Notes under the pieces: generated by a model
What the model was told of the DNA's origin: nothing
The model's input: only the letters and a program-made list of their open reading frames with translations
Databases searched by the model: none
In this document: positions 1,060 through 63,383 of the stretch, piece by piece
Numbering within the stretch: the first letter of the stretch is position 1
How the letters are laid out: each line of letters starts with the position of its first letter
NCBI GenBank assembly: GCA_964016885.1
Contig: OZ024742.1
Location: forward strand, 157,604,001-157,668,000
Origin: Eledone cirrhosa
Lineage: Eukaryota
Direction of reading: 5' to 3'
DNA: 64,000 nt
Program-made: the position numbers and the translations under genes

Positions 1060-1290
1060 ATAATATATAAGATCAAAAGATGATTAAAAGGGTGCCATGT
1101 ATTTTATTATGCGCATTTCAAAAACAAATATCATCATGCAATAATATTTGTGTTTTCATCAGATAAAATAGGAAGACATGATATGAAGGTTAAAAAACAC
1201 TTGTGAATAGTGCAGTTTTGAATCAACATATGAAAAGTAGACTTAGATTGATGTGTGATATTGGGGGAAATAATTGTTGGGGGGGGGGGG
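1060..1290 (-). mobile_element. Solo PLE pseudo-LTR carrying a hammerhead ribozyme (copy 1; copy 2 at 11380-11610)
   Basis: Near-identical ~230-bp direct repeat of 11380-11610, inserted in (TA)n, contains an HHR. Confidence 0.75.
1100..1170 (-). ncRNA. Type I hammerhead ribozyme
   Basis: Minus strand: TATTTTAT-CTGATGA-[36-nt hairpin AAACACAAATATTATT..ATGATGATATTTGTTTT]-GAAA-TGCGCA-TA-ATAAAATA; 8-bp helix I, palindromic helix III. Confidence 0.9.
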
Positions 1291-4200
1291 GGGGGGTTGT
1301 ACTACAATAAAACTCACCTCCTATATATATATATATATATATATATATATATATATATATATATATATATATATATATATATATATATATATATATATAT
1401 ATATATATATATATATATATATATATATATATGGGGGTGGGTCTGTCAGTGTCTCTGACTGTGTGTGTGTATGATGTGTTCTGCTCTTTTGCTTTACACT
1501 CTTTTGCTCTTGATAAAATGTTAAGACTGCAGTATTGTGAATGCAATTTATTGCAGACCCAATGAGAGCAGGCCGATTAATTCACATCATTTTTCTGATG
1601 CAAATATCCACATTATAAATGGGATAAGCAGGCACGATAAACACAACATAACCTTGATGTATTTTGTAGTATTTTTGCATTGTAAATTGGGCCAGAACTC
1701 CTTTTAGTACATATTCATAAATCTATAGAATAAGATATGAGAAATTCAATTTAGTGTTGATATGATCATATTCATTGCAATAAGATATTAATTGTCGATA
1801 CACCGTATGTTAATTAGCTGATAGGGTGACCAAGATATAGTTTTATACTTTTGCCACGATGTCGGGGCGTCCATTAAACCTACAGTAGTGTGATACTGCT
1901 TCTCCATTCTAGCATCCCAGTATAGATGAAAGGCAAAGCTAACCTGTCGAGAGATGAACATATTTTTTTCGTTTTGTTTTTGTAACGAATTGGTTTCTTT
2001 TTGTAGTGCTGATAGCAAAACATCGCTTGATACCAGGTTAATGTAATATGCCCGATAACAGCGGGCTTTCATATTATAATGCATGTCTGTAATATACGGA
2101 TATGAGTCTAAACTGGCAAAAATTACTGTCCATGGAATATTTAATGCTTAATGTGGCAATCATTATAATTGATTATGCAGACATAAGTTAACCAATACAT
2201 ATATGCTTTGTCAAATATTACAAATAGTATTTCGAATGGATTCTCCTATGAATTTCAATGGAATCTGCTCTCCCTTGATATCGTAAATTGTTTCAGAAAA
2301 ATGATTTCACTCAAACCTATATTTGGCAGAATCTACATTTAACTGATGATAAATAATTCGTCCAATATTAGTTCACAACGTACGTGGACATAGCTAATAA
2401 TTTACTTCTCATTCAATGTTTCTGATTGAAAGAAATATAACACGTTACATATATAATGGGAATCCTAAATTTACACAAACAGGGCCTTTATCTTAAATAA
2501 TTTGGAAATATTTCATCATGTGTAATAGGATAAAAATTTCCTTTATTCTACTATCTTCTATTCATTTCGGGTTTTATTTAATCTAATCGAGATAATTGCA
2601 GATGATAGATGCAAGATATATAAGAAGCATCTTCTAGATTTTGTTGGTAACATCCATTGTTATTTAAGAGTTGCCGAAAGGAAAATGGAAATGGATACGA
2701 TTCTGAGATGAAAGACTATTTTTTATTCACGATAGAAACTTAATAACATAATTTAGATGTAATCTAATACTCATTTATATATGTTAGCTATATGACAAAA
2801 GACATAGGAATGCTTCCAAATGCAACTAAACTTATGTAACTATTAAGAATTAAAAGTACAAGATTTCCATAAATTGATATTGATAGTCGTCATGATCGTT
2901 GTGATATTAGAAGCAGCTGCATCAAATGACGGTTTTAATAAACCAACCAATGTTTTGCAAAAAAGAATGTCACTTCTTTAAAATATAATGAATACTGAGT
3001 CTTTACAGAGAATATTGGAGATGGCATCACAAAAATAATATTATTTTTTCAGATCTACACTACATATAATACTGTATTGACTTGTACTTTACGGTTCATT
3101 TGCAATATTTTTCATTTTAGTTGATTTCGTACATTTGAAATCACAAGGCTTGAGATTCAATCGCTCACAACCATTCTTACTTCATAGCATTTAGAAAGTT
3201 AGCTTTTAGAACTGCAGCATTTTACTTATTTTATCGCCTATCATATTTATGATGCTTCAGTGTGTTTTAGAATGTTTATCAAATGTTGAACTTTGGCGTT
3301 AAATTTTAGTAGTGTTCATCCTCATGGAAAAACGTCATGAAGTTAATTCGATCTTCAATTGCTGGTGTCGTGTCTGTTGTTAAACTAGAACCAATGTTAC
3401 CGTGATGTACGAGTAAAATATGATAATTTTATTCATTCTGGGAAACAATCCACTTACATTTCTACTGTGAAGCACCCCTAGAACCAACAGCACAGAAATG
3501 GTATTCTTGAAATGTATTTCATTGACATGCATCTTAGACTTAAAAATCGTAGCGTAACCTTGACTTTCGGGAGTGATTGTATATTACAGTATATACATCG
3601 TCTAGCTGAAAACCAAGATATCTGTGGTAGATATATGACCATTTCAATGTTGTAGCATTCGATATTTCAGCAGGATTAGCATTGAGGTTAACATGAACTT
3701 TACATATTGTTACTCTCCTATATTAAATGCGTAGTTGCGTAACTATAGGAAATAAGAAATGTATCTAATGCATCGGTTTCAAGTAGCTGTATTCTTTGTC
3801 TGTTGAATAATTCGATTTCCTTACATGTAATATAGGCTTACGATGCTGCTGTTGCCGCACCTGCTGTGGATATTGGTAACCCATTGATATTGTAATGTAG
3901 CTATGTACGAATGTCTACGTTTTTAAGCTTTGTGAATAGTGCTTTTACCCTAGAATACGGTTCGCGGAGTTCAGATGTACCTGCTCCATATGTTGAAATA
4001 ATTCTTATTGCTTCACCTTTGAACGATCAAAGGGTTTGTTGCAAAATATGAATAAAAGCATAGAAATAAATGATTGAAACTAATCTGCAAAACATCCCAT
4101 TATTCTAGTCCATTGGAAGTCATATAATCTATTGCATTTTATTCTAGCAATGTAGTAGTTCATATATGCTAACGTGTAGTCATGTGTCATGTCAGTCATA

Positions 4201-4653
4201 TGCTATGTATCAGACATGAAGTGGTTTGATTGTAATGTTATTGGTATTAAGAGAGAGGGAAAATAGCAAACTGTAATAAATCGTTCACAGATAGATATTT
4301 TTTGTCGTGTGCTGTAGTATTTATTGCTATTTCTTTCAACTCAAGCTGTAATGGTCCTTCTGGAAAGTATCCTTCAATCTATCATTGTATATTCAACAAT
4401 CATCATTTTTATAGTGTTATTAGTAGATTCATTTCATGTTATTTCCAGTTTTGCAATACTGATGCATCTATTAAATACTCTTTTTACATCATATTTATAA
4501 AACTTTATATATATATATAAAGTGTAATAAATATGATGTAGAAAGGGAATTTTATATATATATATATATATATATATATATATATATATATATATATAGA
4601 GAGAGAGAGAGAGAGAGAGAGAGAGAGAGAGAGAGAGATATGTTTCATTTGGG

Positions 4654-4731
4654 AGAACTGTTTCATACTTTAAAATCATCAGGATCATCATCATGAGATT
4701 CCTGATGATTTCTAAATAATGAAACAGTTCT
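4654..4731. repeat. Small fold-back with degenerate hammerhead cores on both strands
   Basis: AGAACTGTTTCAT..AATCATCAGGA / TCCTGATGATT..ATGAAACAGTTCT inverted arms; each strand reads CTGATGA-N11-12-GAAACAGTTC. Confidence 0.55.
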
Positions 4732-61447: not shown

Positions 61448-61861
61448 TTATAATCGATATTCTTTTCTTCTATAATTATTAATTATTTCAGCTAAGGATG
61501 TTGTATTAGCTAATGCGGCATTTTTAAAACTGTGTTTGTGGGTATTAAATCTTACTTTAAATTGGTTAGAAGTAGCTCCTATATATGAATAAGTTGAGTC
61601 CTTAGTGTTAATTTTACATTTATATACTATGTTATTAATAAGGCAATTTCCTTTTAATGGGCAATTTGCTTTGTTTCTACAGTTACAACCTTTCGTGAAT
61701 GTTGTATCAGAGGAGATAGTCAAATTAGGTGTGGAATTTTCTCGACTTGTTGTATGTGAATGAGATGCTGGTTTGCTGTGGGTTATTTTAGTATTATGGT
61801 TAGTTTGATGTATTGGTGGTATATTCATGTTTTTTTTTACATTTATATGCATTATAGGCAC
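61448..61861 (-). pseudogene. PLE GIY-YIG endonuclease fragment
   Basis: CNCRNKANCPLKGNCLINNIVYKC...YIGATSNQFKVRFNTHKHSF..TSLA. Confidence 0.92.
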
Positions 61862-62651
61862 TTATATTTTGTTGTATATTTTTGGTTGTTGAGTAGGAGA
61901 ATTTGACCGTTGATCTATTTAAAATTTGATGGTATTTATGGTTTGGCGGGAAGTTTTTCTCTAGGATAGTAAAAAATGTTTAGGTATATTATCTTTAATT
62001 TATAGATTAAATGGAGTATTATACCAAGTAACACGTCTATTACGGTTTCGATGTTGTTTTCTTTATTTTAGACGATGTATCCTGATGTTTACTAAGAGAA
62101 TTAGTATTAGTGATTTTATTACACATATTTTTAGTTAGATTCATTGATTCAGGTGTTTTAGCCTGATTAATTAGGAATTTTGTTATTAACATATATTGGA
62201 ATATTAGGATGAATGGTTTTTTGAAAGTTATCATATTGTATATTAGAAGAGTTAGAGAAATTAAGTTTTAAGTTGGTATTTTTTAGTATAGTGTGAGTGG
62301 CATTTAGGTGTGTATATTTCATTTGGTGTTTGTTGGTAATATTGGGTTGTATGTTTTGTAGTATTATTGGTACAAGGTATATATACTAATTTGTTTTTGT
62401 GGCCGCTTCTAGCTAAAGCTTCGTTATAAAAGGTCGCATTTTTATCGAATACATCCTGGTTAGATGAAAGCTTAGAAATTCTGAGTGAGATATTATATGC
62501 TAGGTTTTTACGGATAGATTTAGGGTGATTAGATTGTGAGGAGTGTACGTAATGTAAGTTTTGGTTAGTGTTATGGTAAGGTTGGTAGATACCCGTAAAT
62601 AAGTCTAATGTTATATCAATGAAGAATTAATAAATTAAATAATCAGAGCAA

Positions 62652-63383
62652 TATATCATAAATCATATCCTTAGAATTATTAGATAAAATAGATACCATT
62701 TCCTCTCCTAATTAGCATAATTAACCATATAAAAAATCAATTAGACCAGGTTATAAGAATAAAGGCTCTTATGAAGAAATTTCCGACAAATTAGCGAAAG
62801 CGGCCTCTTCGCGGTGGCCTCGATAGAGTATTTATCCAACATTTCAACAGCATGTAGAAACTGACCAAATATACCGTCAATCATACACAATTAGGTGTAA
62901 ATTCAAACTTAGAAGAAATGTGTACATACCGTAATTATATCTCTATGGTTTCTAACTTGACCACTGCCACGTCACGATTCTTAGCCATGTTTTAATCTAT
63001 TTTTGGCGCGATCACTTTGAAAATTAAATGTCTAATTTTTAGTTCACTCCTGATGAGTCCGATACTCTGGACATATCCTGTTATTCGATGTCTAAAAATA
63101 CGGACGAAACCATGGTAGAGATATAATTACTCTATGTACACATTTCTTCTAAGTTTGAATTTACACCTAATTGTGTATGGTTGACGGTATAATTTATTCA
63201 GTTTCTACATGCTGTTGAAATGTTGGATAAATACTCCATCGGGGCCAACGCGAAGAGGCGGCTTTCGGTTATTTGTCGGAAATTTCTTCATAGGAGCCTT
63301 TATTCTTGTAGCTTGGTCTAATTGTTTTTTATATGATTAATTATGCTAATTGGGAGAGGAAATGGTATACATGATTTATGATA
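62652..63383 (+). mobile_element. Non-coding fold-back element with ~280-bp inverted arms and a hammerhead
   Basis: 62652-62952 is a diverged reverse complement of 63106-63383; HHR at 63047-63121; ends in (TA)n. Confidence 0.88.
63047..63121 (+). ncRNA. Type I hammerhead ribozyme with a 49-nt helix II
   Basis: CTC-CTGATGA-GTCCG-[..GGACAT..ATGTCT..]-CGGAC-GAAA-CCATGG-TA-GAG. Confidence 0.88.

What the first reader, a model, noticed from the sequence alone, without database searches (positions are those of the whole stretch)
1100..63121. Six different palindromic helix III hexamers across unrelated hammerhead families: a possible family-specific dimerisation code
Seen: between GAAA and the UH cleavage site the motifs have TGCGCA (1100, 11420), CAATTG (20974), TGATCA (27466), TATATA (33263, 33482), CGATCG (60397) and CCATGG (63047). 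The sequence varies but self-complementarity is kept. Established: minimal PLE and satellite HHRs with an unstable helix III cleave efficiently as dimers via palindromic loops. Inference: each family has its own pairing key, so only same-family tandem pLTRs or transcripts would activate cleavage. The GAAA-UAAC (32172, 39472) and CGUCG (29219, 36479) families are non-palindromic exceptions.
Basis: partly seen in the sequence, partly recalled or inferred. Interest (0 to 1): 0.75.

Follow-up and report, generated by a model that had tools for sequence, protein, structure and literature searches.

The report
Known dimer-type hammerheads, no family code
The six palindromes are real and sit in hammerhead-ribozyme motifs at the ends of Penelope-like jumping genes, where they likely let two copies cut as a pair, as already published; distant families share the same palindrome and close relatives differ, so they are not a family code.

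Summary
All eight hexamer motifs are type-I hammerheads of Penelope-like retroelements (PLEs); one core pattern alone matches 146,807 times in this 3-Gb genome versus 9,432 for its control. In a palindrome-blind 1.19-Mb sample, 95 of 138 motifs have a self-complementary helix III insert (control 0 of 8). Pairing extends to inner positions that a monomer cannot pair, and G·U beats A·C (TATGTA 20,626 copies, TACATA 66). This is the published double-hammerhead signature. The code reading fails. CAATTG serves families whose endonucleases are 22-37% identical and not one clade. TATATA, TGATCA and TGCGCA belong to related families. Keys are reused more than chance, and the six are no more orthogonal than random palindromes. 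The CGUCG 'exception' is the palindromic ACGU minimal hammerhead; TAAC is a rare variant of GAAC. Dimers are still predicted to be mostly family-restricted (271 of 274 cross-family pairs mismatch), because helix I arms are swapped too. That looks like a by-product of divergence; cleavage is untested. The scan noted the same idea elsewhere in this genome (e1-8664523), with the same verdict.

The parts
1100..1170 (-). Type-I hammerhead, insert TGCGCA, 8-bp helix I, 36-nt helix II region
11420..11490 (-). Second copy of the TGCGCA family
20971..21017 (-). Type-I hammerhead, insert CAATTG, short helix II; inverted relative to the PLE remnant at 21684-22360
21684..22360 (+). PLE RT C-terminus and GIY-YIG endonuclease remnant with CxCX5C linker; 69% to the ORF 377 nt upstream of a CAATTG hammerhead in L098
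27469..27526 (-). Type-I hammerhead, insert TGATCA
29219..29246 (+).
32173..32215 (-). Hammerhead of a GAAC family carrying the rare variant TAAC
33268..33333 (-). Hammerhead, insert TATATA; left arm of a 193-nt inverted duplication
33488..33553 (+). Hammerhead, insert TATATA; right arm of the same inverted duplication
33679..35001 (+). Broken PLE ORF (RT motifs, CxxC linker, GIY-YIG) of the ACGU family
36479..36505 (+). Minimal hammerhead (ACGU) about 1.5 kb downstream of that ORF
36767..38746 (+). Broken PLE RT ORF of the GAAC/GATT family
38938..38971 (+).
39477..39510 (-). Hammerhead of the GAAC/GATT family with rare variant TAAC; helix I only 2 bp
40184..41399 (-). Broken PLE RT ORF upstream of the 39510 hammerhead
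60397..60523 (-). Type-I hammerhead, insert CGATCG, 92-nt helix II region
61448..62626 (-). PLE RT C-terminus and GIY-YIG remnant (CxCX5C) 936 nt upstream of the CGATCG hammerhead
63047..63120 (+). Type-I hammerhead, insert CCATGG, extended helix II
4650..4747 (.). Head-to-head pair of decayed hammerheads of a family with the 14-nt insert CAGTTCTAGTCCTG

Best explanation
These are hammerhead motifs in the terminal repeats of many Penelope-like retroelement families, and their self-complementary helix III insert likely lets two copies on a tandem transcript fold into a double hammerhead and cut, with the palindromes likely differing by compensatory drift rather than by selection for a family code. 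Shown: motif anatomy, link to RT/GIY-YIG ORFs, tandem pLTR-ORF-pLTR units, palindromy including inner pairs, G·U over A·C bias, and key sharing between distant families. Inferred: A15.1 of one copy pairs with U16.1 of the other, which forces helix I arms to be exchanged as well. Two identical partners must then be self-complementary, and keys change through G·U intermediates (TATATA-TATGTA-TACGTA, CAATTG-CGATTG-CGATCG). In tandem units the partner is the element's own other repeat, so little partner choice is needed. Predicted: most cross-family dimers fail as a by-product of divergence in arms and key.
For: Motif excess 146,807 vs 9,432 and 85,854 vs 34,695. Blind sample: 95 of 138 self-complementary vs 0 of 8 in reversed DNA (stricter scan 82 of 116 vs 0 of 9). 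Clusters with 2-9-nt inserts: 30 of 47 Watson-Crick and 36 of 47 with G·U, vs shuffle means 7.5 and 10.1. In 24 hexamer clusters the outer, middle and inner pairs are Watson-Crick in 23, 22 and 15 (inner 21 with G·U), permutation p at most 5.5e-4. Monomer helix III costs +2.4 to +4.7 kcal/mol, homoduplexes give -2.2 to -14.1. Homodimer fold beats two monomers in 24 of 24 representatives. TATGTA 20,626, TACGTA 606, TACATA 66 in the same flanks. Tandem units: L240 has 569-nt repeats flanking an 815-aa ORF, L225/226 has a 4,145-bp period. Against a code. Literature: PMC4209133, PMC6765202.
Against: No cleavage was measured. Energies are nearest-neighbour models without tertiary contacts or concentration. 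GAAC families (12 of 14 copies in one cluster) lack inner pairing and their homoduplex is +2.4 kcal/mol. The ACGU and GAAC/GATT families have only 1-2 bp of helix I although they own the clearest tandem units. Only 14 of 146 sampled motifs have a same-strand, same-family neighbour within their 10-kb stretch, so most genomic copies have no cis partner. Intact tandem units were seen for the ACGU and GATT families and a 515-nt CCATGG repeat (L228), not for the other five hexamer families. Only 3 of 274 cross-family pairs are compatible at both helices, which a selected code would also predict. ORF-to-hammerhead links rest on proximity, often one copy.
Confidence: 0.85

Rival explanations
1. Selected family code: keys have diverged under selection so that transcripts activate cleavage only with their own family.
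For: The six window keys are mutually mismatched (heteroduplex penalty mean 11.6, minimum 6.2 kcal/mol). TGCGCA and TATATA/TATGTA families have fully compatible helix I arms (8+8 bp) and are separated only by the key. CCATGG is kept in 91 of 100 listed copies while helix II varies (counted by eye).
Against: Any two different palindromes differ by at least 5.5 kcal/mol; random sets of six match or beat the window's six in 98% (all 64) or 81% (pyrimidine-start) of draws. 15 clusters use only 10 keys, with 9 colliding pairs vs 1.6 expected (p 5.5e-4). CAATTG is on families 22-37% identical in the endonuclease; monophyly is rejected, p-AU 0.004, group named after a first tree. 19 of 22 clusters have a fully pairing foreign key (this set includes loci fetched for CAATTG). 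Key compatibility is 3 of 20 among arm-compatible pairs vs 41 of 254 otherwise (odds ratio 0.92, p 1.0; pairs are not independent).
Confidence: 0.07
2. The motifs work as monomers with a 1-2 bp helix III stabilised by proteins or tertiary contacts; palindromy is a relic or secondary.
For: GAAC families keep only the outer pair. The 14-nt-insert family can form a 4-bp monomer stem (-1.4 kcal/mol). PLE hammerheads cleaved poorly in vitro even as dimers (PMC4209133).
Against: Middle and inner pairs, which a hairpin cannot form, are kept across different sequences. None of ten window monomers folds the insert into helix III in its minimum-energy structure.
Confidence: 0.06
3. The palindromes are DNA-level features (protein binding sites, microsatellite bleed-through or foldback priming), not RNA pairing.
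For: TATATA resembles the surrounding (TA)n tracts; many copies sit in inverted junctions.
Against: Exact placement between A15.1 and U16.1, odd-length palindromes with a central mismatch, and strand asymmetry favouring G·U over its reverse complement A·C by about 300-fold (copies descend from few masters; at cluster level 8 G·U vs 2 A·C).
Confidence: 0.02

Closest known systems
Minimal and palindromic-helix-III hammerheads in pLTRs of metazoan Penelope-like elements (Cervera and De la Pena 2014, PMC4209133; read parts 1-2 of 4)
   Same: Type-I cores in PLE repeats, many consensus families per genome with covariation, palindromic 15.2-16.2 and loop 3, proposed dimer activity, most copies solo and truncated.
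   Different: Inserts here are often 6-8 nt and up to 14 nt (the paper gives 2-4-nt loops on a 1-2 bp stem, so hexamers are at the upper end), helix II reaches 60-116 nt, and copy number exceeds 100,000 (the paper reports up to about 9,000). The parts read do not discuss family specificity.
Small hammerhead variants of PLEs that cleave as dimers (Lunse, Weinberg, Breaker, RNA Biol 14:1499; not held, seen only as a citation and summary in PMC6765202)
   Same: Palindromic, very short stem III; cleavage as dimers.
   Different: Unknown whether heterodimers or palindrome swaps were tested there; the paper could not be read.
Double hammerhead of newt satellite and ASBVd RNA (Forster et al. 1988, as described in PMC4209133 and PMC6155905 passages)
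   Same: Unstable monomer helix III replaced by an elongated helix between two tandem copies on one RNA.
   Different: Here dozens of coexisting families with different inserts share one genome.
Hydra-clade PLEs (Craig et al. 2021, PMC8557442; passages and section 11 read)
   Same: C-terminal GIY-YIG with CxCX5C linker, canonical hammerheads, (TA)n surroundings; DKT in one long ORF.
   Different: RWR rather than RWK in the two long ORFs checked; no tree with reference Hydra sequences was built. The ACGU and GAAC/GATT families have CX2-5CxxC linkers and are not Hydra-like.

Membership tests
Type-I hammerhead ribozyme | CUGANGA ... GAAA ... UH core in order | tested here: met
   Rfam gathering scan gave no hammerhead hit
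Type-I hammerhead ribozyme | Helix I and helix II flanking the core | tested here: met
   Six hexamer families: helix I 3-8 bp in representatives; ACGU and GAAC/GATT families only 1-2 bp
Type-I hammerhead ribozyme | Self-cleavage after UH | not testable with these tools
   no assay available
PLE pLTR dimer-type hammerhead | Located in the terminal repeat downstream of an RT plus GIY-YIG ORF | tested here: met
   Pfam GIY-YIG and RVT hits are weak (E 0.016-0.14); L240 repeat-ORF-repeat
PLE pLTR dimer-type hammerhead | Palindromic 15.2-16.2 and loop 3, unstable as monomer | tested here: met
PLE pLTR dimer-type hammerhead | Cleavage depends on a second copy | not testable with these tools
   predicted only
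Hydra-clade PLE (six hexamer families) | CxCX5C linker before the endonuclease | tested here: met
   present in representatives of all six keys; 21 of 27 rows overall; absent from 3 CAATTG rows (degraded or variant) and, as expected, from the ACGU, GATT and GAAC rows
Hydra-clade PLE (six hexamer families) | DKT and RWK motifs | tested here: inconclusive
   DKT in L091, DKA in L054; RWR in both
Hydra-clade PLE (six hexamer families) | Absence of CCHH; placement with reference Hydra RTs | not tested
   no reference sequences fetched
   CAATTG in 4 of 24 clusters, 5 after targeted search; TATATA in 3; two keys within one cluster (TATATA/TATGTA, GAAC/GATT)
   predicted for most pairs: 11 of 276 hetero pairs within 5 kcal/mol of homodimers

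The most novel reading that the evidence does not exclude
Helix I arms and the helix III palindrome together form a two-part lock that makes hammerhead cleavage family-private in a genome with dozens of coexisting PLE families, and where arms remain compatible (TGCGCA versus TATATA/TATGTA) the key was driven apart by selection against cross-cleavage between transcripts.
Probability: 0.08. Interest if true: 0.6.

Novelty: new member of a known kind. Interest (0 to 1): 0.2.

Why it matters
As found, it adds a large covariation data set supporting the published double-hammerhead model for PLE ribozymes: inner-pair conservation across many different palindromes and a G·U over A·C bias. It also offers a natural panel of orthogonal and cross-compatible dimer ribozymes for kinetics. 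A selected code would show self/non-self discrimination between retroelement RNAs, but the tests here point against it.

Tried and rejected
Rfam gathering scan: no hammerhead family hit; the one hit (Plastid-psbJ-2, 4948-5080) is a (TA)n plus inverted-repeat match and was set aside. Pfam at E 0.01 found no PLE fragment; only weak hits at E up to 10. First homologue search found nothing at near lengths; the longer-length search gave 3 relatives. The first scanner limited inserts to 10 nt and mis-read the 14-nt family as CAGTTC (fixed). The position-by-position conservation of the ACGU cluster is circular at positions 3-4 because the scanner forced that register, so it was not used. The collision count (14 pairs among 17) is inflated by the targeted CAATTG search; one search is the cleaner count. 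L253 was dropped from the second tree because its ORF lies downstream of its hammerhead; five other gappy, long or redundant rows were also dropped. No RNA holder listed. Lunse et al. could not be read. Searches returned no title or abstract start on heterodimers or family specificity of PLE hammerheads; supplements of PMC4209133 and PMC8557442 were not opened and may list such families.
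Full report
Setting. The window lies at G000:C3:157.6 Mb of a 3.0-Gb genome, rich in (TA)n tracts. The best protein relative of one ORF fragment is annotated from Octopus vulgaris at 65% identity, so a cephalopod host is inferred.

Observation. A scan for CTGANGA...GAAA...TH with helix I pairing recovers all eight hexamer motifs at the stated places. The 60397 motif has a 92-nt helix II region. 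Of 13 window candidates, the 8 with a 6-nt insert are all Watson-Crick palindromes; chance per hexamer is 0.019. The two TATATA motifs are arms of one inverted duplication, so six events count. The stated exceptions do not stand as written. The CGUCG family (4,830 pattern matches) reads best as GAAA-CG-UC, the loopless ACGU minimal hammerhead, since only that register pairs G1.1 with C2.1; the longer register is also self-complementary. TAAC is 2 of 100 listed copies in a family of 11,471 matches whose keys are GAAC and GATT. GATT pairs fully with G·U. GAAC keeps only the outer G-C and is a true partial exception.

What they are. Hammerheads lie 200-2,300 nt downstream of RT or GIY-YIG remnants on the same strand. 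L240 shows 569-nt direct repeats, each with a hammerhead, around an 815-aa ORF; L225/L226 hold head-to-tail units of 4,145 bp. This is the Penelope-like element layout in PMC4209133 (parts 1-2 of 4 read) and PMC8557442 (passages and section 11). Representatives of all six hexamer keys carry the CxCX5C linker of the Hydra clade; that lead came from earlier notes and membership was only partly tested. Genome-wide the core pattern is far above its reversed control: 146,807 vs 9,432 and 85,854 vs 34,695.

Is palindromy real? In 119 evenly placed 10-kb stretches (1.19 Mb) a scanner blind to the insert found 138 motifs against 8 in reversed DNA; 95 of 138 inserts are fully self-complementary (60 even Watson-Crick, 13 odd, 22 with G·U) against 0 of 8. 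All 253 motifs then in hand fell into 60 clusters; 13 with inserts under 2 or over 9 nt were left out. Of the other 47, 30 are Watson-Crick and 36 pair with G·U, against shuffle means of 7.5 and 10.1, maxima 17 and 20 in 20,000. In 24 hexamer clusters the outer, middle and inner pairs are Watson-Crick in 23, 22 and 15 (inner 21 with G·U); column permutation gives p at most 5.5e-4 (clusters are related, so p is optimistic). A hairpin cannot form the middle and inner pairs, so they point to a second copy. In identical flanks TATGTA (G·U) occurs 20,626 times, TACGTA 606 and TACATA (A·C) 66, a strand asymmetry expected from RNA pairing. Copies descend from few masters; at cluster level the ratio is 8 to 2.

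Mechanism. If A15.1 of one copy pairs with U16.1 of the other, the cleaved base and its helix I arm come from the partner too (inference from hammerhead geometry). In that fold the homodimer beats two monomers in 24 of 24 representatives, by 10-20 kcal/mol in the model. None of ten window monomers forms helix III from the insert in its lowest-energy fold. Two identical partners must be self-complementary, which explains palindromy without any code. G·U intermediates link keys: TATATA-TATGTA-TACGTA, CAATTG-CGATTG-CGATCG, CATATG-CATGTG-CACGTG. Dimer cleavage for this class is published (PMC4209133; review passages in PMC6765202, and PMC6155905). It was not measured here.

Is it a family code? 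Five tests. (1) Uniqueness: 15 Watson-Crick hexamer clusters use 10 keys, with 9 colliding pairs against 1.6 for a uniform draw (p 5.5e-4; about 3.3 expected if keys must start with a pyrimidine, my arithmetic). CAATTG also has 5,465 long-helix-II matches of several types. (2) Relatedness: CAATTG families are 22-37% identical in the endonuclease and are rejected as one clade (p-AU 0.004; group named after a first tree). TATATA and TGATCA families are 69% identical, TGCGCA about 50%, and they group with TATGTA at 88/95. (3) Single clusters hold two keys. (4) Orthogonality: the six window keys are mutually mismatched (minimum penalty 6.2 kcal/mol), but every pair of different palindromes is (minimum 5.5), and random sixes do as well in 98% or 81% of draws. 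(5) Displacement: keys are compatible in 3 of 20 arm-compatible cross-cluster pairs and 41 of 254 others (odds ratio 0.92).

Only 3 of 274 cross-cluster pairs are compatible at both helices and 11 of 276 hetero pairs come within 5 kcal/mol of homodimers, so activation is predicted to be mostly family-restricted. The CAATTG families are kept apart by helix I, and TGCGCA is kept from TATATA only by the key. This fits a by-product of divergence and does not need selection, but selection in particular pairs is not excluded.

Limits. No kinetics. ORF links rest on proximity. Only 14 of 146 sampled motifs have a same-strand, same-family neighbour in their stretch. The two families with the clearest tandem units have 1-2 bp of helix I, which is unexplained. 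Lunse et al. could not be read and supplements were not opened; either may bear on heterodimers. Passages of a 2026 preprint (10.64898/2026.07.22.740005) report cleavage in 1 of 9 dimer retrozyme elements and do not mention palindromes. Paper searches showed no listing on family specificity.

Verdict. Real, well supported as dimer-type PLE hammerheads, already known in kind; the family-code reading is not supported. Interest 0.2.

Noticed in passing
window 29219, 36479, 38938, 39510; L240, L225: The ACGU and GAAC/GATT families have only 1-2 bp of helix I yet own near-identical tandem units with long ORFs; how or whether they cleave is unexplained.
   Followed up: partly
window 4650-4747; L133, L209, L091: An abundant family has a 14-nt helix III insert, two changes from a perfect palindrome, that could fold either as a 4-bp monomer stem or as a 12-of-16-bp dimer; copies are often inverted right at the hammerhead.
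   Followed up: partly
window 60405-60515; L245-L274: Many families carry helix II regions of 60-116 nt, beyond usual search descriptors; 5,465 matches for the CAATTG key alone.
   Followed up: partly
L102:8654-10000: A 311-bp head-to-tail repeat, 99.7% identical, with one CGCG hammerhead per unit: retrozyme-like.
   Followed up: no
hexamer clusters: The first insert base is C or T in 23 of 24 hexamer clusters and the second is A in 16 of 24; 4-nt inserts may start with G. A structural constraint near the core is possible.
   Followed up: no
L227:3589-6350: Tandem hammerhead-like cores with insert GACTGG whose upstream flank repeats GGACTGGT; register unresolved.
   Followed up: no
window 44579-52565: Fragmented non-LTR retrotransposon copies (Pfam RVT_1 hits, and a C-terminal region that looks like a restriction-type endonuclease), with internal inversions.
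   Followed up: no
window 9767-10147, 23459-23810, 30145-30748, 43902-44249: A dispersed 120-170-nt repeat family in both orientations, not examined.
   Followed up: no
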